A stretch of DNA of 64,000 bases from Staphylococcus phage vB_SscM-1, in sequence record NC_047767.1. One strand, 5' to 3'. The notes below the pieces were generated by a model that saw only the letters and a program-made list of their open reading frames with translations, was not told the origin of the DNA and did no database searches. Both the position numbers and the translations under genes were made by a program. Below are positions 1,507-63,290 of the stretch, one piece after another; the first letter of the stretch is position 1; each line of letters begins with the position of its first letter.

Positions 1507-4500
1507 GTGAGTAATTTTTTAAAAAATCTACATCCATTATTAAGACGTAAGAAAAACCCTAAAGATAATGAAGATGTAAACTACGCTTTGATTAAAGTGT
1601 TAAATGAAGAAATGAATTTAATAGAGCAAGATGCTATTGAGAGTAAACTACAATCCTCCCTTAAATCTTCTACAGGTACTTATTTAGATAACTTCGGAGA
1701 TTGGTTTGGAGTGTATCGTAAAAAAGACGAAGATGATGAGAAATATAGAGCTAGAATTATTAAATATTTACTCTTGAAAAGAGGAACAAATAATGCTATA
1801 ATAGAAGCTATAAAGGATTACCTAGAAGATAGTAATGTAGACGTTAGTATTTATGAACCTTTTAGAAACATCTTTTATACAAACAAATCACACTTAAATG
1901 GTCATGACCATTTAATGGGTTACTACTACAACTTTGCTATTATTAATGTTTCTATCGGAAGCTATTTCCCTATGGAGATTGTAGATGTTATAAATGAATT
2001 TAAGCCAGCAGGTGTAAAGTTCTATGTAACATACGATGGAGGAGGTACTAATACAGGTAACTCAGTTATTAAGGTTCTAGATGAACCAGTTAGTATTGAT
2101 GTATACCAAAATATAGATAGACTTAGCGGGTACTCTGAAACTTTTTACGGTCATATTAATATGGGATTAAGAAAAGTTAGTTATGACAGTAAAACAGATA
2201 TATTTAAAACCAATAATAGTAAAATTAATAGTAATGATGTGTTAACAGGTTCCTCTAGTATAGGTAGAGCATTTCATAACTACGCATACAAGACAAACTT
2301 TGTATATAATCCTACTAGAACATCTACTGTATCCGAGATACAAAAGGTACTAGATGAAAAAGGTAGAGAGTTACCTTTAGAATATTATATCAATACCACA
2401 GAAAAGAATAGAGCATCAGTATACCTAGATATAGAGTCTACAACAGGTACATCTTTTATATATAATAACTTAAATTTAAGAGAATACTTTAGCCAGTACA
2501 AACCGGAATTACTACAAGGGGATACACAGGATATTAAAAATGCTATATCTTCTTATGTAGGAGTAGCAACATTTGATTTATTCATGGAGGCTTTAATTTC
2601 TCCTGATGATGTTGTATCTACACAAACACAAGTATTTGATTTCTCAATAGGTAAATGGGTAACAATAAATAGTAGTGAAATAACTTATGGTATGAAAAAT
2701 GTAGGAGCAGAGCTAGGATATATAAAAGACTACATGAATAATGAGCTTAACATGTTCACAAGAGTTTCTATAGCATCTTCAAGTGATGTCACAGTTAATA
2801 TAAATTATCTAGACCTACTATTTTACCATTATACACCAGATGTTTATACAGTTAAACCTTATAAAGGTCTAATAGAGTACTATATAGAACTAGATAGGTT
2901 AAGTTATGTAGACGCTTTTAAAGTAGCTTCATTAAACAATGGGGATATCATTTCAAAAGTAGGATATGAACCTATGGGGTATGTTAGGGTAGTTGGAGAG
3001 TCTAATGAGCCTAAAAATATAATTCATATAAACGATACAGCAGAGCCTCCAATACCTGTGTATGAATTTCAAATAATAACTGATGAAAATGATGTATTTA
3101 ATTATAGGGATACTAAATATTTAATTGAGTTTGATATAGCAGGAGAAGATGCTAGTTTTGTGAAAGATTTATATGTTTACCCTGCTTTTATTTTAGAAGA
3201 CTTTAGTGATTATAGTATAATAAATAGTACAGGTGCTAAAGTATCTATTACTAATACTAAAGGTAGAGCTATAGTAGAAGTTCCTAGTTATGTAGATTTT
3301 GAAAAGTATACCAAGATGTTTATTCAACTAAGTACTTATAATTATCAAGAAAGAGAAGACTTAAAACCAGGTGAAGTAATATATGCAGAGCCATATAAAA
3401 TAAGTTTTAATAACATTACAGTTCAAGATATTTATGAAAGTACAGACCAAGCACCAGACCCAACAACTAGAATAAATAATGCTTTTGTTGATAATAGAAC
3501 AATAGACGGTACACCAGGTAGAGGGAACTCAGGACAAGATGGTAATATCTTGCATAATGAAGCCTATACTCTTAAAACACCAGGAGTTTACAACCCTAAA
3601 GAGTATAAGATACTAGATAATATAACTTTTAGAAAACCTATTGAAACTGGTAAAACCTACACAGTCCAAATTAAAGGTAAGTTAGGTTCTGATAGGACTG
3701 GGTGGGGTGTATATAACTCTAGTGGGTATATGAATGAACTATATGGAAATGGTAGTGGTACTATTAATGAAAACGACTATAATCCAAAAACTGGGATATA
3801 TACTAAAACATTTGTAGCCCCTGAACCAGACCCTACAACTGGTAATCATAGAGAACGATTAAATACGGATATAGAAATATATCAATTCCCTAAAAGTGGA
3901 ACTAGTCAAAGTACAATAGAATGGATAAAGATAGAAGAGGGTTCACAAGCTACTAAAGCAGGGTACCAGTTTGCTTATTATACAATGGCTTATTTACCTA
4001 AAGGTGAATACGATATATATTATAAAGCAAAGGTAGAGGTACAAGAAGGGGAATTAGATATGGTAACCATACTAGATTTCCCTAATACTATAACAAACAC
4101 AGACCCTAAATTTTTCGTACCAATAGAAAATGGATATGTAAAAGGTAAGATATCTGTAAACCGTACAGACACCGAAGGTAGATTACTAATATATGCCGGA
4201 CTAGCAGGAGCAACAGCAGGGAATAAGATTAGGTTCAGTGAGTTAGAGGTTTACTATTCTACAGACCCCGTAGGATATGTAGAGAACGAGATTATATTAA
4301 AAGATTCCTCTGGAAATATATTACCTACAGAAAAAGTTTACACAGAATATACCACACCTAATAGTGTATATAATGGTCAAAAAACTTATAATTACTCTGT
4401 TATGTTGCATGGTTCTTATACTAATATTGCAGAAATAGAATTCAGAGGTAAAGGTAAGGTAGATAATCTCAAATTGCAATACACTAGATATCCTATACCT

Positions 4501-45791: not shown

Positions 45792-46144
45792 TAATTATAC
45801 GTGTTTTCCATAAACAAAATAAACTGTAAATACAGTAATTTTTTCTACATGATAATTAGCACATAAAAAGGTATTTTTGAAACAATAAAAATATTTTTAA
45901 TAATTTCATATGGTACAAGGGTAAAAGAACTCTATATTATATTACTATTAAGTGTATTTTTTGAGTGTACCACAGTACTAAAATGAAAAGAGTACAGAAA
46001 TTATGATATATTATATAGTGTAAGGGTGAAAACAGCACTATGACAACATTTGTTTGTGTATTGAACACTATTTCATTAAATGAGGTATTCAGTATATCTG
46101 TTTACTAAAATAATACACATAAAAGGTTAGGAAGGTATATTATA
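45792..46144. other. A 353-nt AT-rich gene-free region at the boundary between the large-gene modules and the small-gene array.
   Basis: No ORF on either strand. Repeated GTrYAAGGGTrAAA motif at about 45916 and about 46020. Confidence 0.5.
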
Positions 46145-49103: not shown

Positions 49104-49132
49104 GAGTCAGAAGGTTGACTCTTTCTTTTTTT
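49104..49132 (+). terminator. Rho-independent terminator.
   Basis: GAGTCA-gaaggt-TGACTC hairpin plus TTTCTTTTTTTT. Confidence 0.7.
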
Positions 49133-49143
49133 TATGTTATAAT
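49115..49143 (+). promoter_or_regulatory. Promoter whose -35 (TTGACT) lies in the 3' stem of the terminator. 17 bp spacer, TATAAT (TATGTTATAAT).
   Basis: -35 at 49115-49120 and -10 at 49138-49143. Confidence 0.5.
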
Positions 49144-49790: not shown

Positions 49791-49966
49791 TGAGAGATAC
49801 ATTAGCTGTAGCAACTAGATATGAAGTATTAAAAGGTCTCTATGAAGGAGACCATTTAGTATCAAAGGATGATTTCATTGAAGCTCAAGGAGAGTATATT
49901 GAGGCACTAAAAGAAGATATAGAATATCAAAAAGAACTTATAGAGGAGTATAGATACAATGATTAG
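49790..49966 (+). CDS. Small protein of 58 aa (MRDTLAVATRYEVLKGLYEGDHLVSKDDFIEAQGEYIEALKEDIEYQKELIEEYRYND). The ORF track misses it.
   Basis: GGAGGAGGAAG RBS 6 nt upstream. TAATG start overlap and ATGATTAG end overlap with the flanking genes. Confidence 0.45.
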   Translation: MRDTLAVATRYEVLKGLYEGDHLVSKDDFIEAQGEYIEALKEDIEYQKELIEEYRYND

Positions 49967-50303
49967 AATTTATTCAATAGGATTTATTTACCAAGTACTA
50001 AGACAAGCACTTATACTATTCTTTGTTTATGGTTTAGTAAATTTAGTAGGGCTAATAATACCTATCGAACACACATGGGTAGTTACATTTATTATCATTT
50101 TTGCATTAAGATTCATTATAGATTGGATAGATTCTGCTAATGATGTAGCTTACAAAATGATTCATGAGAAAATGAATGACGAAGAAAAAAGTGAAGAATT
50201 TAGAAAGTTATTAGAAAAGTTAGAAGAAGAAAAAAGTGAAGAATTTAGAAAGTTATTAGAAAAGTTAGAAGAAGAAAAAATAAAAAGGGTTGACATTAGT
50301 TAA
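49959..50303 (+). CDS. Membrane protein, 114 aa, with an internal tandem duplication (EEKSEEFRKLLEKLE x2).
   Basis: Two N-terminal hydrophobic helices. Contains the 45-bp perfect repeat. Confidence 0.45.
   Translation: MIRIYSIGFIYQVLRQALILFFVYGLVNLVGLIIPIEHTWVVTFIIIFALRFIIDWIDSANDVAYKMIHEKMNDEEKSEEFRKLLEKLEEEKSEEFRKLLEKLEEEKIKRVDIS
50181..50280 (+). repeat. Perfect 45-bp tandem duplication (two full copies plus a 10-nt partial third) inside a CDS.
   Basis: 50181-50225 is identical to 50226-50270 (GAAGAAAAAAGTGAAGAATTTAGAAAGTTATTAGAAAAGTTAGAA). Confidence 0.95.
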
Positions 50304-50699: not shown

Positions 50700-50710
50700 G
50701 AGGTAGAGTA

Positions 50711-51091
50711 ATGTTTAATACATTCGAAGATATTAGAGATAGAATTCTAGAACATCTAGATAGCATAAAGAGTAATGAAGAGGTATGTATAGTACAATAT
50801 TGTAAAGACCCTTTTACTGATATTGATATCATAAAGCTTCGTGTACAGAATTATGTAATTTTAAAAGAGCAGAAAAAAGTAACTTTCATGGTCAACGGTG
50901 AAACAGTACAACAGGGTACACTAACACCGGGTTATAGTCCTGTAGATGGTACTATCAGTAACATAGCAGATTTTACAATCTTAGGCTCAAAGTTTGATAA
51001 ACTAGAGGAGTATGTAGATTACCTTCAGTCACAAGGTAAGAATGTAAAATTAAAAAAAGTAGACATACTTCATAGTATTAGGAATACGTAG
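50711..51091 (+). CDS. Hypothetical protein, 126 aa.
   Basis: TAGGAGG RBS. Confidence 0.45.
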   Translation: MFNTFEDIRDRILEHLDSIKSNEEVCIVQYCKDPFTDIDIIKLRVQNYVILKEQKKVTFMVNGETVQQGTLTPGYSPVDGTISNIADFTILGSKFDKLEEYVDYLQSQGKNVKLKKVDILHSIRNT

Positions 51092-51101
51092 GGTAGATAT
51101 C

Positions 51102-51284
51102 ATGGATTTTGCACAGCATTTAAAACAAGAGAAAGAGAAACTAGGAACACCTAAGTTTAAACAGAAGCAAGAACCTGTAAGAAGGTTTACAGATGAGCAA
51201 AAGAAAGAACTTTGGAAGCGGGTTAAATCTAAATCTTCTTACATTGATTTAAGAAAAGATATTGACAAATACACATATCTATAG
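51102..51284 (+). CDS. Hypothetical basic protein, 60 aa.
   Basis: Coupled to the upstream gene. Confidence 0.4.
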   Translation: MDFAQHLKQEKEKLGTPKFKQKQEPVRRFTDEQKKELWKRVKSKSSYIDLRKDIDKYTYL

Positions 51285-51290
51285 TATAAT
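51262..51290 (+). promoter_or_regulatory. Sigma-A promoter TTGACA, 17 bp, TATAAT that transcribes into a 255-nt non-coding structured region.
   Basis: -35 at 51262-51267 and -10 at 51285-51290. Confidence 0.6.
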
Positions 51291-51545
51291 ACTATTATAA
51301 GCTACAGAAAGTTATTCACCTCTAAGGGATTGAGATATCGAACCCTTACCTGGGAAGGGAGGTCTTATGTAGGTACGACAGGTGCTTTCCGGTACAATAA
51401 CAAAAAAAATAAGAAAAAGGTTCACTTTAGATTTTTACTAGAGTAAGATAGCGGAAACTATCTTACTTACCTAGAGCACATAGGCAAGTGCTTGTGTGTT
51501 GTAGGTAGGTTTAACCTGCTACTTAATTAAAGGAGGAATATATTA
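51291..51545 (+). ncRNA. Candidate structured non-coding RNA or long 5' leader.
   Basis: GC-richer than the flanks. No ORF. Hairpins at 51323-51348, 51442-51467 (10-bp perfect stem AGTAAGATAG/CTATCTTACT) and 51506-51530. An RBS-ATG-TAG start-stop at 51355-51372. Confidence 0.3.
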
Positions 51546-51857
51546 ATGGAGAGAGTTATGGATTCTATTGACAAAGCTACAGGCGTTACCTGGGGAGCTT
51601 TAGTAACTCAACAGGTATTTTATGGAATAGGAATGATTATCTTAGCATCACTAGCATTGTTAGGTTTATATGTAATCTTGAAGAGGGTTACAATTAGAAA
51701 TATTAGCTTCAATGTATCATTAGTAATGTTATTCTTGACAGTAGTAAGTATTGCATTATTAGGATATGGATTTATGCATGTAATCAATCCTGGATATTAT
51801 GCTTTACAGGATATGAAAGATTCTTCATTCCAGTTTATTGATGCAGTTAAGCACTAA
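51546..51857 (+). CDS. Small membrane protein, 103 aa.
   Basis: AAGGAGGAA RBS. Two TM helices. Confidence 0.45.
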   Translation: MERVMDSIDKATGVTWGALVTQQVFYGIGMIILASLALLGLYVILKRVTIRNISFNVSLVMLFLTVVSIALLGYGFMHVINPGYYALQDMKDSSFQFIDAVKH

Positions 51858-51862
51858 AACCA

Positions 51863-51896
51863 AATAGGTATATACTAATTATGGTATATACCTATT
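51863..51896 (+). terminator. Strong hairpin (13-bp perfect stem), a probable terminator.
   Basis: AATAGGTATATAC-taattatg-GTATATACCTATT followed by ATTTAT. Confidence 0.5.
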
Positions 51897-51914
51897 ATTT
51901 ATAGGAGGTACATC

Positions 51915-52109
51915 ATGAGATATAACAATAAAGCATTTAACTTAATGGATAACCTAAACTTAGATTTGAAAAAGAAGATTACTAAGGTTACAGTTAAGTA
52001 TGGAGATAACGTGGTAATATACCATGTAGGTAATAAGCAACATGAGTTTACATTTGAGGAGTTAGTAAAAGGTGAGATAACTTTAGAGAGGTTTGAGAAA
52101 TCAAAATAG
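51915..52109 (+). CDS. Hypothetical protein, 64 aa.
   Basis: TAGGAGG RBS. Confidence 0.45.
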   Translation: MRYNNKAFNLMDNLNLDLKKKITKVTVKYGDNVVIYHVGNKQHEFTFEELVKGEITLERFEKSK

Positions 52110-52112
52110 GAG

Positions 52113-52442
52113 ATGATTACAATGGAATCTGTTCTGCAAAGTATAGAAGGTATAGAGAAAGTAGATACACCTACAGAACTAAGTAGGGCATTATTACTCA
52201 GTATGTTTAACACTGAGATTGATGATGAGTCAGAAGTAGAGTTAGAGAAGAGTTATGTAATGATAGGTAAGTTAAACTTTATTAAAGGGATGTTATCTAA
52301 TGAAGTACTGAAAGAAAGTAATTATGTAGATAAGATTGTTAAGATTGATTTACCAGATTACGTTAAGTATGATGTGATTAATTTAGCTATTACTAAGCTA
52401 GATGAAATGATTCACCAATTAAAAATAAAGAGAGGGTTATAA
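52113..52442 (+). CDS. Hypothetical protein, 109 aa.
   Basis: RBS GGAGATGA. Confidence 0.4.
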   Translation: MITMESVLQSIEGIEKVDTPTELSRALLLSMFNTEIDDESEVELEKSYVMIGKLNFIKGMLSNEVLKESNYVDKIVKIDLPDYVKYDVINLAITKLDEMIHQLKIKRGL

Positions 52443-52445
52443 ATT

Positions 52446-52784
52446 ATGACAAACAATGAGAGATATGAATTATTAAAACAGACGAGATTTTCACTTTTAG
52501 GAAACCTAGGAGCATTTCTAATATTAGCTACAGGTGAACCTGTTCAGTTACACAATGAATCTGATTATATGGCTTTAAAGAATACAGAAGGTGTATTAGT
52601 AGAGATTAAAGATTTACTAGTGCATGACCATACATGGAAGGTAGAGAAAGAGCCTGCATTACAAGATGGTATTGCTAAGATTGTACAAGCTATTCAAGTA
52701 GTATGTTCAGAAATGAATAATCTTGTTGATAAGATGAATAGTGAGTATATAGCAGGAGCAGTAAATGACATGTTTAATGAATAA
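52446..52784 (+). CDS. Hypothetical protein, 112 aa.
   Basis: Coupled to the upstream gene. Confidence 0.4.
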   Translation: MTNNERYELLKQTRFSLLGNLGAFLILATGEPVQLHNESDYMALKNTEGVLVEIKDLLVHDHTWKVEKEPALQDGIAKIVQAIQVVCSEMNNLVDKMNSEYIAGAVNDMFNE

Positions 52785-52794
52785 AACTTTTAAA

Positions 52795-52829
52795 AGAGGC
52801 TTGACAGCCTCTTTTTTATATGATATAAT
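52795..52829 (+). promoter_or_regulatory. Terminator-promoter hybrid. The loop of the AGAGGC-TTGACA-GCCTCT hairpin is the -35 hexamer. It is followed by TTTTTT, a 17 bp spacer and TATAAT.
   Basis: -35 at 52801-52806 and -10 at 52824-52829. Confidence 0.6.
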
Positions 52830-55495: not shown

Positions 55496-55533
55496 CACTA
55501 CCTATTGACATAGGTAGTGTTTTATAGTATAAT
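55496..55533 (+). promoter_or_regulatory. Terminator-promoter hybrid. The -35 TTGACA sits in the loop of the CACTACCT/AGGTAGTG hairpin. TTTT, a 17 bp spacer and TATAAT follow.
   Basis: -35 at 55505-55510 and -10 at 55528-55533. Near-identical to the element at 58633-58670. Confidence 0.6.
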
Positions 55534-58632: not shown

Positions 58633-58670
58633 CTCTACCTGTTGACATAGGTAGAGTTTTATAGTATAAT
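58633..58670 (+). promoter_or_regulatory. Terminator-promoter hybrid. The CTCTACCT/AGGTAGAG hairpin carries TTGACA in its loop. TTTT, a 17 bp spacer and TATAAT follow.
   Basis: -35 at 58642-58647 and -10 at 58665-58670. Confidence 0.6.
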
Positions 58671-60360: not shown

Positions 60361-60406
60361 TAGCAAAGAAACCTTCACACATAAGTAACATAAAGTGGAG
60401 TAATCT

Positions 60407-60505
60407 ATGTTGACTATTAAAACAATTAAAGAAACAATATTAGAGCAACCTGGGATTTTCGTTCTCTCTCCCACTCGTACAGCCTTATACTACCGACTTG
60501 GTTGA
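60407..60505 (+). CDS. Possible 32-aa peptide (MLTIKTIKETILEQPGIFVLSPTRTALYYRLG) in the non-coding region downstream of the endonuclease gene.
   Basis: AAGTGGAG RBS 6 nt before the ATG. Low confidence, because it lies in a structured region. Confidence 0.2.
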   Translation: MLTIKTIKETILEQPGIFVLSPTRTALYYRLG

Positions 60506-60762
60506 TTACTCAACTAACCAACCTCATTGTACACAACTTAATTGTGCTTGATGGTATGCTTATCTACTCTTATGTAACCTTTATCTTATAGTAAGAAGCG
60601 GTAACCTTAGCTTATATACTATTAATGTGGTATATAATATGTATAATACTGGTACTGATGTATCAAGGGCTCAAGATGTATTTGTGAATAAGGTTGTATA
60701 AAAGACTCCACTTTCCCTAGGGTTAGTATTCATAAAAATGAATAAATGTATAAAATTAATCC

Positions 60763-60791
60763 TTGACACCCGCTTCATCTTATGTTATAAT
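60763..60791 (+). promoter_or_regulatory. Sigma-A promoter TTGACA, 17 bp, TATAAT (TATGTTATAAT) with CCGCTTC in the spacer.
   Basis: -35 at 60763-60768 and -10 at 60786-60791. Confidence 0.6.
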
Positions 60792-60823
60792 AAGAGTATA
60801 AATAATAAAGGAGATTGATAGTT

Positions 60824-62340: not shown

Positions 62341-62906
62341 AATTAAATTTCGAGACTAACATTGCAGAGGGTACACCTGAGGAGCTAGTAGAATACTTAA
62401 GATTAGTAGAAGGGAATAGCACAGAAGAACCAGAAGAAGCGGAAGAACCTTCTACAGAACTTAAAGTAGGAGATAAGGTAAGAGTATTAAACAGTCTCTA
62501 TGGAGCTGAAGGAGAGGCTACTGTAACTAAGGTACTAGAAGGTGGTAAGGTAGAGATAGCAGGTACAAGTAATTATGGTACTTATTTAACGAACTGGAGT
62601 AACTGTGTATCCTTCCTAGAGAAGATAGAAGAGGAAGAAGATGTAGAAGTAGAAGAAGCGGATGGACTTCTAGGTTACAGATACTGGTACTTAGACACTG
62701 CTAACTTTAATAAATTTGTTGTACTAAAAGCAAGAGCTAATTACTTTGAAGATTCAATAGGTAAGAGATACACTTATCAGGCTGTAAGCGGGTATGTAAA
62801 ACCTATTGACAGAGAAGATGCTTATGTAAAATTTGATTTTGCTGAAAGAAAAGGAGCTCTATTAAGTTACTACCCTACAGTAGATATCTTTCAGATTAGT
62901 TATTAA
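62337..62906 (+). CDS. Hypothetical acidic protein, 189 aa, carrying the paralogous N-terminal motif AEGTPEELVEYL.
   Basis: AGGAGGAG RBS. ATGA overlap with the upstream gene. Confidence 0.45.
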   Translation: MKLNFETNIAEGTPEELVEYLRLVEGNSTEEPEEAEEPSTELKVGDKVRVLNSLYGAEGEATVTKVLEGGKVEIAGTSNYGTYLTNWSNCVSFLEKIEEEEDVEVEEADGLLGYRYWYLDTANFNKFVVLKARANYFEDSIGKRYTYQAVSGYVKPIDREDAYVKFDFAERKGALLSYYPTVDIFQISY

Positions 62907-62908
62907 TT

Positions 62909-62927
62909 GAAGCGGGTTAACCGCTTC
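62909..62927. repeat. Perfect palindrome GAAGCGGGTTAACCGCTTC (two inverted GAAGCGG heptamers around a GTTAAC core).
   Basis: Read directly. It is part of the GAAGCGG motif cluster. Confidence 0.9.
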
Positions 62928-63026
62928 TCCTACTTAGAGTATATAAGTAGTTGTATATTGTAAGTAGGAGTGGTAATCCTACAGTTCTTGTAAAGGAACC
63001 ATTTTGGTTTGTTCCGACAAGCCGAA

Positions 63027-63058
63027 CCCTCTATCTCAGAAATAGGGGGTTTTTATTT
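63027..63058 (+). terminator. Rho-independent terminator.
   Basis: CCCTCTAT-ctcagaa-ATAGGGGG hairpin (one G-U pair) plus TTTTTATTT. Confidence 0.65.
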
Positions 63059-63063
63059 AGGTG

Positions 63064-63092
63064 TTGACATATACTAAGTAGTATGTTATAAT
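63064..63092 (+). promoter_or_regulatory. Sigma-A promoter TTGACA, 17 bp, TATAAT (TATGTTATAAT).
   Basis: -35 at 63064-63069 and -10 at 63087-63092. Confidence 0.6.
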
Positions 63093-63122
63093 TGATATAT
63101 AATCAATAAGGAGGAAGCGGTT

Positions 63123-63290
63123 ATGGTAGTTTTAATTATAGTACAGATTTTGTTATTAGTATTACAGATTTTATCATTGGTGTTACTTATCAAAACAGAT
63201 GATGATTTCTGGTTATTTATTTCAAATATATTCTTTGCAGGTGTAGTTGGAATGATGGTTTATATTTTAATGTCTTATGGACTCGTATAA
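63123..63290 (+). CDS. Small hydrophobic membrane protein of 55 aa (MVVLIIVQILLLVLQILSLVLLIKTDDDFWLFISNIFFAGVVGMMVYILMSYGLV). The ORF track misses it.
   Basis: AAGGAGGAAG RBS and its own consensus promoter. Two TM helices. Confidence 0.5.
   Translation: MVVLIIVQILLLVLQILSLVLLIKTDDDFWLFISNIFFAGVVGMMVYILMSYGLV

What the first reader, a model, noticed from the sequence alone, without database searches (positions are those of the whole stretch)
51262..51545. Consensus promoter firing into a 255-nt GC-enriched, highly structured non-coding segment (candidate ncRNA or regulatory leader)
A perfect TTGACA-17-TATAAT promoter overlaps the stop codon of the upstream gene. The next start codon is 255 nt downstream. 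That spacing is exceptional in a region where genes are otherwise packed with 10-60 nt gaps. The segment has no ORF and is visibly GC-richer than its surroundings. It contains several stable hairpins, including the 10-bp perfect stem AGTAAGATAG-cggaaa-CTATCTTACT at 51442-51467 and GTAGGTAGGTTTAACCTGCTAC at 51506-51530. It also contains a minimal start-stop (GGGAGG, 4 nt, ATG TAG at 51367-51372). I tested a tRNA model against it (an ATCGAACC motif) and it failed, because that segment is just a hairpin with a 14-nt loop. Possible identities are a phage sRNA, a riboswitch-like or RNA-thermometer leader for the downstream membrane protein, or a degenerate ORF-less intron-like element.
Basis: seen in the sequence. 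Interest (0 to 1): 0.55.

Follow-up and report, generated by a model that had tools for sequence, protein, structure and literature searches.

The report
Conserved structured leader RNA, staphylococcal phage
The 255-base gap behind a perfect early promoter in this Staphylococcus/Mammaliicoccus phage is a folded, non-coding RNA region that is more conserved than the genes around it. Its two-hairpin core recurs 11 kb away and in about 80 related phages, but its function is still only inferred.

Summary
TTGACA-17-TATAAT (51262-51290) overlaps the upstream stop codon, and the next start codon is 255 nt away. The other perfect promoters in the window sit 28-49 nt from their genes (one 83 nt).

The window is a Sciuriunavirus (Twortvirinae). 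The core 51291-51511 is not coding and is under strong purifying selection: 2.3% variable sites, against 27% at third codon positions. It folds far better than shuffles on the + strand only (z -5.5 versus -1.9). Every substitution in its local helices keeps the pair.

It has two domains. D1 (51323-51392) is genus-specific. D2 (51418-51517) is a junction of hairpins H3, H4 and H5.

A model built from D2 found a second copy at 62884-62979. Its H4-H5 pair occurs in about 80 Staphylococcus/Mammaliicoccus phage genomes, always stop codon - H4 - H5 - terminator - promoter - small membrane protein in the 11 loci examined. Covariation supports both hairpins, and H5 keeps two G.U pairs.

Rfam, tRNA, intron, small-ORF and pseudogene readings all fail. 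The ribosome-binding site is not unusually occluded.

The function is inferred, not shown. My best guess is a cis-acting recognition site for a dsRNA-binding factor, such as an RNase III processing or stability signal in early mRNA. A put-like antitermination RNA is the main rival.

The parts
51262..51290 (+). Sigma-70-type early promoter: TTGACA (51262-67), 17 nt, TATAAT (51285-90). The predicted transcription start is about 51297 (inferred).
   Evidence: It is invariant apart from 2 spacer positions in 8 related sequences.
51297..51322 (+). Invariant 5' segment of the leader. It includes CACCUCU (51317-51323), which is complementary to the SD-like words GGAGGU (51358-63), AGGUG (51380-84) and the real SD GGAGG (51532-36).
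   Evidence: invariance. (predicted long-range pairing with the SD region, weak and not covarying).
51323..51348 (+). Hairpin H1 of domain D1 (UAAGGG-A-UUGA-GAUA-UCGA-A-CCCUUA).
   Evidence: It is invariant in all relatives.
51350..51392 (+). Hairpin H2 of domain D1. It holds GGGAGG (51357-62) and AUG UAG (51367-72). The pair G51354.U51388 becomes A-U in the MSShimriz1 clade.
   Evidence: Model R1 finds no second copy anywhere.
51393..51417 (+). A-rich unpaired linker. The A8/A9 length polymorphism here breaks both small ORFs.
51418..51517 (+). Domain D2, a four-way junction. It has a closing helix (51418-22 / 51513-17), H3 (51424-51444), H4 (51445-51464, extendable to 51442-51467) and H5 (51465-51510). 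H5 is 9 bp, a G/G mismatch, 11 bp, and the loop AAGU.
   Evidence: H4 A-U<->G-C, U-A->U.G; H5 U-A->U.G. Model R2. H5 covariation with the second copy.
51501..51530 (+). Variable 3' junction. An alternative hairpin, GUAGGUAGGUUUAACCUGCUAC (51501-51522), competes with the lower stem of H5. The 47-nt insertion in ZCSS1 and ERR11489725 lies here.
   Evidence: 29% of sites are variable in 51512-51545.
51531..51857 (+). SD AGGAGG (51531-36) and the 103-aa membrane protein gene (51546-51857, PHROG 1486).
51863..51896 (+). A 13-bp AU-rich hairpin after the membrane-protein gene. It is terminator-like, with a weak U tail on the + strand.
62908..62971 (+). Second copy of the H4-H5 motif (type B). H4 is GAAGCGG-GUUAA-CCGCUUC (62909-62927). 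H5 is UCCUACUUA-G-AGUAUAUAA-GUAG-UUGUAUAUU-G-UAAGUAGGA (62928-62969). It starts right after the stop codon (62904-06) of a 189-aa ORF.
   Evidence: (R2: 38.6 bits, E 3.5e-9).
63027..63092 (+). Intrinsic terminator (CCCUCUAU-loop-AUAGGGGG plus a U-run, 63027-63058). It is followed by the perfect promoter 63064-63092 for a 55-aa hydrophobic ORF (63123-63290).

Best explanation
The gap encodes a functional, + strand, structured non-coding RNA (my confidence in that alone is about 0.85). It is transcribed early from the consensus promoter, and probably also by read-through from upstream. It forms the 5' leader of the membrane-protein mRNA.

The RNA is modular.
- D1 (hairpins H1 and H2) is a 5' domain found only in Sciuriunavirus.
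- An A-rich linker follows.
- D2 holds an H4-H5 hairpin pair. This pair is one copy of a motif shared with a second locus in this genome and with about 80 staphylococcal Twortvirinae.

Mechanism (inferred, not shown; about 0.35). H5 is a two-turn RNA helix of 19-21 bp with a central G/G mismatch, two fixed G.U pairs and near-invariant sequence. I propose it is the recognition site of a dsRNA-specific factor, most likely host RNase III. H4 would be a purely structural companion hairpin.

Cleavage or binding there would process the early transcript. It would separate the upstream cistrons and D1 from the membrane-protein message, or trim the 3' UTR at the second locus. That would set the stability and yield of the flanking messages. 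RNase III sites do this in early mRNA of phage SP82 (same family) and T7.
For: Shown:
1. Purifying selection. Only 5 of 221 sites vary in 51291-51511 among five genomes (2.3%). The figures are 15.5% for neighbouring coding DNA, 27.1% at third codon positions and 6.5% at second positions (Fisher p = 3e-10, 2e-20 and 0.014).
2. Strand-specific fold: z = -5.46 on + against -1.86 on -. The element is one of only two GC-rich, strongly folding gaps in 64 kb.
3. All substitutions in local helices keep pairing. These are G.U->A-U, A-U<->G-C and two U-A->U.G, and the wobbles work only on the + strand.
4. A covariance model built from D2 alone finds a second copy at 62884-62979 (38.6 bits, E 3.5e-9). 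It also finds the homologous sites in 10 other phage loci (E 5e-9 to 3e-6).
5. H5 across 14 sequences of both types: 100% of 260 cells are paired. Four pairs changed on both sides, and 0 of 500 shuffles reach this. G.U and U.G are kept in 13/14 and 14/14 sequences.
6. H4 in type B: three independent double changes, 100% paired, with loops free to vary.
7. The H5-only model scores 30-47 bits higher on the + strand than on the - strand.
8. The motif is in 78-81 phage records, always in the sense orientation of the flanking genes.

Inferred:
- H5 has the length of an RNase III substrate.
- No terminator separates the upstream operon from this leader, so the hairpin lies between cistrons.
[quoted passage not shown] That could explain why sequence as well as structure is fixed.
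Against: - No transcript or cleavage data exist for any of these phages.
- There are only two copies per genome, unlike the five or so sites of T7. Most early gene junctions here have no such hairpin.
- At the second locus the motif sits only about 60 nt upstream of a strong terminator. Cutting there has no obvious benefit.
- RNase III does not explain why D1, the linker and H3 are even more conserved than H5.
- The near-invariance of about 40 nt across genera is more than dsRNA recognition usually needs.
- My recollection that the SP82 sites share sequence and an internal loop comes from memory of Panganiban & Whiteley 1983 and could not be checked.
- Diversity of the full type A element is tiny: 8 near-identical sequences. 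D1 and the closing helix therefore rest on thermodynamics alone.
Confidence: 0.38

Rival explanations
1. Processive antitermination RNA, working like HK022 put or B. subtilis EAR. The nascent H4-H5 pair binds the transcribing RNA polymerase, alone or with a phage factor, and makes it resistant to downstream terminators.
For: - The form fits: two directly abutting stem-loops of about 65-75 nt, one defined by structure only and one by sequence.
- The numbers and placement mirror putL/putR and nutL/nutR (from established knowledge). There are two copies per genome. One is just downstream of an early promoter (51262). The other lies after a gene and 50-75 nt upstream of a strong intrinsic terminator in all 11 loci aligned.
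- Genes 51915-52784 have no promoter of their own. They lie beyond the hairpin 51863-96, and several terminator-promoter junctions follow.
Against: - There is no similarity to any Rfam family, including EAR.
- At the second locus a perfect promoter follows the terminator at once, so read-through is not needed to express the next gene.
- The hairpin 51863-96 is a poor terminator on the + strand.
- There are no functional data.
Confidence: 0.2
2. Trans-acting or decoy RNA. The conserved core (about 215 nt, 51297-51511) is released from the leader by processing. It would then act on a host or phage protein or RNA, for example as a sponge or an anti-defence decoy. The membrane-protein gene would simply be the next gene.
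For: - The core is more conserved than second codon positions, while the junction to the gene is the most variable stretch (29%) and tolerates a 47-nt insertion.
- Homologous membrane-protein genes in other phages have no leader.
- It has its own consensus promoter.
- Phage K RNA-seq shows that Twortvirinae do express small non-coding RNAs (PMC9241854).
Against: - There is no intrinsic terminator or other defined 3' end before the SD.
- No target can be named.
- The type B copy has a terminator but no evident promoter of its own.
Confidence: 0.15
3. Riboswitch-like or thermometer leader that gates translation or transcription of the membrane-protein gene through alternative pairings. CACCUCU (51317-23) could pair with the internal GGGAGG or with the real SD. 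The H5 lower stem could alternate with the 3' hairpin 51501-22.
For: - The conserved 'aptamer' plus variable 'expression platform' pattern fits.
- MFE and alifold structures pair 51313-21 with 51531-40 in all variants.
- Alternative folds of near-equal energy appear in the MSShimriz1 and ZCSS1 variants.
Against: - The RBS opening energy is 4.2 kcal/mol, inside the 0.5-5.7 range of the other 14 early leaders.
- The long-range helix shows two broken pairs and no compensatory change.
- There is no terminator in the leader and no Rfam hit.
- The H4-H5 module also occurs in a 3' UTR, where it cannot gate an RBS.
Confidence: 0.08
4. DNA-level element. This could be an imperfect palindrome used as a protein-binding site, a single-strand initiation signal, or a replication or packaging signal near the terminal repeat.
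For: - Type B lies 0.65-1.6 kb from the left genome end, inside the long terminal repeat, in many phages.
- Its sequence is very conserved across genera.
- G.T pairs are tolerated in ssDNA hairpins.
Against: - Pairing is maintained by compensatory changes, and the conserved wobbles are valid on one strand only. That strand is always the sense strand of the flanking genes.
- Type A lies directly behind a consensus promoter.
- H4 conserves structure but not sequence, which is typical of RNA.
Confidence: 0.05
5. Remnant of a coding gene, an unannotated small ORF, or an ORF-less intron.
For: - Two ORFs of 38 aa (+) and 37 aa (-) exist.
- Three short collinear repeats link the leader to the start of the membrane gene.
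Against: - Both ORFs are split by the A8/A9 indel in the MSShimriz1 clade. They have no homologue outside the same six phages.
- A pseudogene would be less conserved than the neighbouring genes, not more.
- The membrane protein is complete without an upstream exon: SA1 has the full 103 aa with its own RBS.
- There is no intron model hit.
- The gapped leader-versus-CDS alignment is not significant (43 of 500 shuffles).
Confidence: 0.02

Closest known systems
RNase III processing sites in early mRNA of Bacillus phage SP82 (Herelleviridae) and of coliphage T7
   Same: - They are conserved hairpins of about two helical turns with an internal mismatch.
- They lie in non-coding stretches of early, host-polymerase transcripts.
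- Several copies per genome share sequence as well as shape.
- The Firmicute enzyme is described as narrow-specificity (PMC4838370).
   Different: - There are only two copies per genome here, against 3 to 5 or more.
- No sequence similarity could be checked.
- One copy lies just before a terminator rather than between cistrons.
- The type A copy is embedded in a larger, equally conserved structure (D1, H3).
- Cleavage has not been tested.
HK022 put RNAs (putL, putR) and lambda nut sites; B. subtilis EAR
   Same: - They are cis-acting elements in nascent early RNA.
- They consist of two adjacent stem-loops.
- There are two copies per genome, one promoter-proximal and one after the first gene and upstream of a terminator.
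   Different: - There is no sequence or covariance-model similarity (Rfam).
- The host is Gram-positive and the phage is a lytic myovirus.
- A promoter directly follows the terminator at the second site.
- Antitermination has not been tested.
Phage K small non-coding RNAs (snc001-007; PMC9241854), in particular snc007
   Same: - They are intergenic early-region transcripts of a Twortvirinae phage.
- snc007 occupies a gap that looks syntenic (60-aa ORF | gap | membrane proteins).
   Different: - snc007 is not homologous.
- It holds a promoter plus an unannotated hydrophobic ORF of about 25 aa.
- It does not fold better than shuffles (z = -0.9).
- Models R2 and R3 find nothing in the phage K loci scanned.
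5' mRNA stabilisers of Bacillus (STAB-SD; the SP82 polypurine stabiliser)
   Same: An SD-like polypurine word (GGGAAGGGAGG, 51352-62) lies in a 5' UTR and is not followed by a real ORF. Here it is followed by AUG UAG.
   Different: - The word lies about 60 nt from the predicted 5' end.
- It is partly paired inside H2.
- The spacing to the AUG is only 4 nt.
- Nothing about it could be tested.

Membership tests
Any Rfam 15 family (riboswitches, leaders, sRNAs, ribozymes, introns, EAR, 6S, SRP, and so on) | A covariance-model score at or above the family's gathering threshold. | tested here: not met
   There are 0 hits in the whole window at gathering thresholds. At E<=10 in 51000-51900 and 62800-63130 the only hits are eukaryotic or unrelated noise at 15-20 bits, against thresholds of 45-76.
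tRNA / tmRNA / tRNA-like | A cloverleaf with a T-arm and anticodon arm detectable by ARAGORN. | tested here: not met
   ARAGORN finds no gene in 64 kb. The AUCGAACC word lies in H1, a 6+4-bp hairpin.
Riboswitch / RNA thermometer leader | An expression platform that occludes the RBS or forms an intrinsic terminator. | tested here: not met
   The RBS opening energy is 4.2 kcal/mol, within the 0.5-5.7 range of the other early leaders. There is no terminator in the leader. A 47-nt insertion before the SD is tolerated.
Riboswitch / RNA thermometer leader | The leader is associated with the regulated gene across relatives. | tested here: not met
   Homologues of the membrane-protein gene in SA1, IPLA-C1C, PSU5, V1SA15 and BS1 follow the previous gene by 1-35 nt (137 nt in Madawaska). 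None has this element.
Group I / ORF-less intron | It interrupts a gene whose exons rejoin into one reading frame, and it has a conserved catalytic core. | tested here: not met
   The flanking ORFs are separate genes. The membrane protein is complete (103 aa, with its own RBS) in SA1 without any upstream exon. No intron model hits.
RNase III processing site (SP82 / T7 type) | An RNA helix of about 20 bp or more (two turns), often with an internal mismatch, supported as a real structure. | tested here: met
   H5 is 9 bp + G/G + 9-11 bp. It is 100% paired in 14 sequences, 4 pairs changed on both sides, and 0 of 500 shuffles reach this.
RNase III processing site (SP82 / T7 type) | It lies in a non-coding part of an early multi-gene transcript. 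| tested here: inconclusive
   The position fits: there is no terminator between the upstream operon and the leader, and the second copy lies in a 3' UTR. No transcript map exists.
RNase III processing site (SP82 / T7 type) | Cleavage by RNase III in vivo or in vitro. | not testable with these tools
   This needs rnc-mutant end mapping or an enzyme assay.
put / EAR-type antitermination RNA | Two adjacent stem-loops in nascent RNA, placed promoter-proximal or upstream of terminators. | tested here: met
   H4 and H5 abut without a spacer. One copy is 150 nt from a promoter. The other is 50-75 nt upstream of a terminator in 11 of 11 loci.
put / EAR-type antitermination RNA | It causes terminator read-through in cis. 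| not testable with these tools
   This needs reporter or Term-seq experiments.
Independent sRNA gene | Its own promoter and its own terminator or a defined 3' end. | tested here: inconclusive
   Type A has a consensus promoter but no terminator before the SD. Type B has a terminator but no evident promoter, since it starts at the stop codon of the upstream ORF.
Twortvirinae H4-H5 motif (defined here) | A 7-bp hairpin of free sequence, directly followed by C[CU]UAC[CU]UA-G-AG...UUG-UA[AG]GUAGG. This is a long hairpin with a G/G mismatch and two G.U pairs, on the sense strand. | tested here: met
   Both window copies and 10 other phages match.

The most novel reading that the evidence does not exclude
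The H4-H5 pair is a factor-independent or phage-factor-dependent antitermination RNA, working like put, in lytic Gram-positive myoviruses. The type A leader would be a composite in which a genus-specific sensor or scaffold domain (D1) has been fused to it. That would make it a programmable 'licence to read through' for one early operon of phages used in therapy.
Probability: 0.15. Interest if true: 0.75.

Novelty: new variant of a known kind. Interest (0 to 1): 0.5.

Why it matters
Twortvirinae are the main therapeutic phages against staphylococci, yet their early gene control is known only at the level of promoters.

This work defines a previously unlisted structured RNA motif. It is absent from Rfam 15 and from the transcriptome papers I could read. 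It has real covariation support, is present in about 80 genomes, and has a composite, extremely conserved version in Sciuriunavirus.

If it is an RNase III or antitermination signal, it would show how these phages process or extend early transcripts. It would also give a compact cis element for engineering expression in staphylococcal phages.

If the core acts in trans, it would be a new phage RNA effector.

Either way it is a concrete target for experiments, with exact coordinates and testable mutants.

Tried and rejected
- **Rfam.** Gathering and permissive thresholds on both loci gave nothing.
- **tRNA/tmRNA.** ARAGORN found none.
- **Distant homologues of the full type A element.**
  - blastn at E<=10 over 50,697 phage records found only six Sciuriunavirus genomes.
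  - An exact 27-mer in IMG/VR found none.
  - A 21-mer in JGI metagenomes gave one chance hit in a high-GC contig.
  - GTDB genomes gave none.
  - A search with the membrane protein in IMG/VR found none.
  - A protein search plus contig look-ups added only three near-identical Logan contigs.
- **H5 pattern in GTDB and IMG/VR.** It gave one chance hit inside a gyrA gene and the known phage BS2. The motif is therefore not of host origin.
- **Homology to phage K snc007.** Rejected: that gap holds a promoter and a small hydrophobic ORF.
- **The upstream 60-aa ORF against K gp085.** No similarity.
- **Domain D1 paralogues.** None found.
- **More H5 copies, as a T7-like multi-site system would need.** None found in the window, in the UHP46 right arm or in the phage K loci.
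- **SD sequestration.** Not exceptional.
- **Tandem repeats of the ToxI antitoxin type.** None.
- **Small-ORF or pseudogene reading.** Rejected.
- **Leader as a diverged duplicate of the membrane gene.** A three-block chain test was significant, but a gapped alignment was not. This is left unexplained.
- **Hue et al. 1995 (PMC177050) on SP82.** The paper is not held.
Full report
**1. What the window is**

The region 50700-52200 is 97.6% identical to Staphylococcus phage UHP46. It is 91-94% identical to ZCSS1, MSShimriz1 and PG-2021_31/33/76. All are Sciuriunavirus (Herelleviridae, Twortvirinae), about 140 kb, infecting Mammaliicoccus sciuri and related hosts. The membrane protein is 100% identical to that of vB_SscM-1.

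The finding lies about 10 kb from the right end of the unique sequence, in the early region. The window then runs on into the start of the terminal repeat.

**2. The observation**

The sequence shows TTGACA at 51262-67, a 17-nt spacer and TATAAT at 51285-90. The TAG of a 60-aa ORF lies at 51282-84, inside the spacer. The next gene starts at ATG 51546 behind AGGAGG at 51531-36.

The window holds 15 perfect TTGACA-17-TATAAT promoters, all on the + strand. They stand 28-49 nt from their start codons, apart from one at 83 nt and this one at 255 nt. Only 11 stretches of 90 nt or more lack a + strand ORF.

The gap has 0.36 GC, against 0.21-0.24 for most other gaps. It is therefore GC-rich for intergenic DNA, though only a little above the window mean of 0.32.

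Folding gives -76.1 kcal/mol and z = -5.46 on the + strand, against z = -1.86 on the - strand.

**3. It is not coding and not a remnant**

The two small ORFs (38 aa on +, 37 aa on -) span an A8/A9 length polymorphism. It splits them in the MSShimriz1 clade and in one Logan contig. By tblastn they occur only in the same six phages, in two pieces in four of them.

Conservation is the strongest argument. In a five-genome alignment, 5 of 221 sites vary in 51291-51511 (2.3%). The figure is 15.5% for nine neighbouring genes, 27.1% at third codon positions and 6.5% at second positions.

The conserved block ends sharply at about 51511. The 34 nt up to the start codon are 29% variable. In ZCSS1 and ERR11489725 they carry a 47-nt insertion.

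A pseudogene would show the opposite pattern.

**4. Structure**

MFE, centroid and RNAalifold agree on the local helices.
- H1: 51323-48.
- H2: 51350-92.
- An unpaired A-rich linker.
- A four-way junction made of a closing helix (51418-22 / 51513-17), H3 (51424-44), H4 (51445-64) and H5 (51465-51510).

Variation among the eight available sequences is tiny, but every change in these helices keeps a pair.
- G51354.U51388 becomes A-U.
- A51448-U51461 becomes G-C, a double change.
- U51449-A51460 becomes U.G.
- U51472-A51503 becomes U.G.

The other changes fall in the linker or in a junction. The wobble intermediates are valid only on the + strand. That agrees with the asymmetry in folding energy.

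A predicted long-range helix between 51305-21 and the SD/start region has two broken pairs and no compensation. It costs only 4.2 kcal/mol to open, within the 0.5-5.7 range of the 14 other early leaders. I do not regard RBS sequestration as supported.

**5. Independence from the gene**

The 103-aa membrane protein (PHROG 1486) has homologues in 43 phage records. In SA1 (70% identity), IPLA-C1C, PSU5, V1SA15 and BS1 it follows the previous gene by 1-35 nt. In Madawaska the distance is 137 nt. None has this element.

The element is therefore a Sciuriunavirus addition, not an ancestral leader of this gene.

**6. The second copy and the wider family**

I built two covariance models: R1 from D1 and R2 from D2. 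R1 finds nothing else.

R2 finds a second site at 62884-62979 (38.6 bits, E 3.5e-9; 3e-11 without filters). There H4 is GAAGCGG-GUUAA-CCGCUUC and H5 is UCCUACUUA-G-AGUAUAUAA-GUAG-UUGUAUAUU-G-UAAGUAGGA.

This second site starts right at the stop codon of a 189-aa ORF. It is followed by further hairpins, an intrinsic terminator (63027-58), a perfect promoter (63064-92) and a 55-aa hydrophobic ORF. The whole gap folds with z = -7.3.

blastn with this site finds 78-81 phage records. Nearly all are Staphylococcus or Mammaliicoccus Twortvirinae of several genera. One is a Sextaecvirus. The hits usually lie 0.65-1.6 kb from the left end of the long terminal repeat.

All 11 loci that I fetched and aligned (10 other phages plus the window's own second copy) show the same order. 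That order is stop codon - H4 - H5 - hairpin(s) - terminator - promoter, and in most loci a small membrane protein comes next.

**7. Covariation with real diversity**

On 14 sequences of both types, the 20 pairs of H5 are standard pairs in 260 of 260 cells. Four pairs changed on both sides, and no shuffle of 500 reaches the observed score. Two wobble pairs, G.U and U.G, are kept in 13/14 and 14/14 sequences. A G/G mismatch separates the two halves everywhere.

H4 in type B shows three independent double changes (C-G to U-A, C-G to G-C, G-C to A-U). Its loops vary freely in length, and all cells are paired.

An H5-only model (R3) scores 65-75 bits on the + strand against 18-33 on the - strand. 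It finds exactly two copies in the window. It finds none in the last 40 kb of UHP46 apart from the orthologous one, and none in the phage K loci.

The H5 pattern is absent from 185,579 bacterial and archaeal genomes, apart from a chance hit inside gyrA. In IMG/VR it occurs only in the contig equal to phage BS2. It is therefore a phage motif, not borrowed from a host RNA.

**8. What it is not**

- No Rfam 15 family matches either locus, even at E<=10.
- There is no tRNA or tmRNA.
- There are no tandem repeats.
- Phage K snc007 lies in a similar-looking gap but is unrelated. That gap contains a promoter and an unannotated hydrophobic ORF of about 25 aa, and it folds no better than shuffles.
- The transcriptome papers on Kayvirus that I could read do not mention this motif, RNase III or antitermination.

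**9. How it most likely works**

Shown: this is a + strand RNA structure under strong selection. It is modular, and its H4-H5 module is shared with a family of sites in early or terminal-repeat non-coding DNA.

Inferred: H5 has the size of a two-turn dsRNA substrate and is fixed in sequence. H4 is fixed only in shape. That pattern suggests a sequence-selective dsRNA-binding factor.

My first choice is host RNase III. B. subtilis RNase III is described as a narrow-specificity enzyme with characterised sites in early mRNA of SP82, a member of the same phage family (PMC4838370, citing Panganiban & Whiteley 1983 and Mitra & Bechhofer 1994). T7 is the classical parallel (established knowledge).

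No terminator precedes promoter 51262, unlike several neighbouring promoters whose -35 box sits in the loop of a terminator hairpin. Upstream transcripts should therefore run into the leader. A cut in H5 would separate the messages and leave defined, structured ends.

The weak points are as follows.
- There are only two sites per genome.
- One site lies just before a terminator.
- RNase III does not explain the even stronger conservation of D1.

The main rival is a put-like or EAR-like antitermination RNA. The two-site layout is strikingly like putL/putR: one site promoter-proximal, one after a gene and before a terminator.

A released trans-acting RNA, a riboswitch-like leader and a DNA-level signal rank lower, for the reasons given under the rivals.

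**10. Novelty and verdict**

The element is a conserved, modular RNA. Its core is an undescribed motif family of staphylococcal Twortvirinae, and its full composite form is restricted to Sciuriunavirus.

The kind of thing is known: a structured cis element in phage early RNA. The motif and its composite are new, and the mechanism is open.

Interest is moderate (0.5). It would be higher if the antitermination or trans-acting reading proves right.

Noticed in passing
window 51260-51357 and 51566-51597: Three short direct repeats lie in the same order in both places. TATTGACAAA is at 51260-69 and 51566-75. AAGCTACAG is at 51299-307 and 51574-82. TTACCTGGGAAG at 51346-57 matches TTACCTGGGGAG at 51586-97. 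The second copies are contiguous, covering codons SIDKATGVTWGA of the membrane protein. The first copies are 29 and 38 nt apart. A chain test beat 1000 shuffles (26 against a maximum of 24). A gapped leader-versus-CDS alignment was not significant (43 of 500). SA1's gene lacks these matches. Unexplained.
   Followed up: partly
window 49104-49143, 52792-52829, 55496-55533, 58633-58670: Several early promoters are fused to the previous gene's terminator. The -35 TTGACA/TTGACT sits in the loop of a GC-containing hairpin, for example AGAGGC-TTGACA-GCCTCT and CACTACCTA-TTGACA-TAGGTAGTG. The T-run of the terminator forms the promoter spacer. The stems CTACCTA/TAGGTAG resemble the lower stem of H5.
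   Followed up: no
L016 1602-1827 (phage K NC_005880.2 127601-127826) and L008 about 978-1052 (PSU5): The published phage K 'snc007' gap contains a TTGACA...TATACT promoter, a strong RBS and an unannotated hydrophobic ORF of about 25 aa (MLFVIFILAVLFVLGFMNGWNSED). The ORF is conserved in PSU5. The 'sncRNA' may therefore be a small membrane-peptide mRNA.
   Followed up: partly
L020 1541-1586 and 1664-1709 (Stab23 terminal repeat): Stab23 carries two H5 hairpins 123 nt apart. The second has no H4, and they flank a terminator-like hairpin.
   Followed up: no
L002 about 2322-2368 (ZCSS1) and L015 (ERR11489725): A 47-nt insertion (ACTCTCGCAACTTTTAGTAAGCAGTAACAAGGGTAGCTAGTCACTACC) lies between H5 and the RBS. 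It adds a hairpin of its own, GGGUAG-CUAGUCA-CUACCC.
   Followed up: partly
window 49959-50303: The 114-aa ORF contains a perfect tandem duplication, EEKSEEFRKLLEKLEE x2. Relatives have shorter versions (291-294 nt genes), and this is the most variable 100-nt bin of the neighbourhood.
   Followed up: no
L003/L004 about 2729-3230 (MSShimriz1, PG-2021_31), equivalent to window about 51900: The MSShimriz1 clade has about 310 bp of extra DNA downstream of the membrane-protein gene, with small annotated ORFs. The match spans 1812 nt against a 1501-nt query.
   Followed up: no
window 45792-46144 and 60361-60814: These are two other long stretches (353 and 454 nt) without a + strand ORF of 45 aa or more. 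Neither folds better than shuffles (z about -1), and neither was examined further.
   Followed up: no
window 62870-63062 compared with relatives: The window's type B region is closest to PG-2021_19 (80.8%). It is only 76-87% identical to the Sciuriunavirus relatives that are 91-98% identical around the type A element. This suggests mosaicism at the left end of the terminal repeat. One 'Arcanobacterium' phage record also matched and was not inspected.
   Followed up: no
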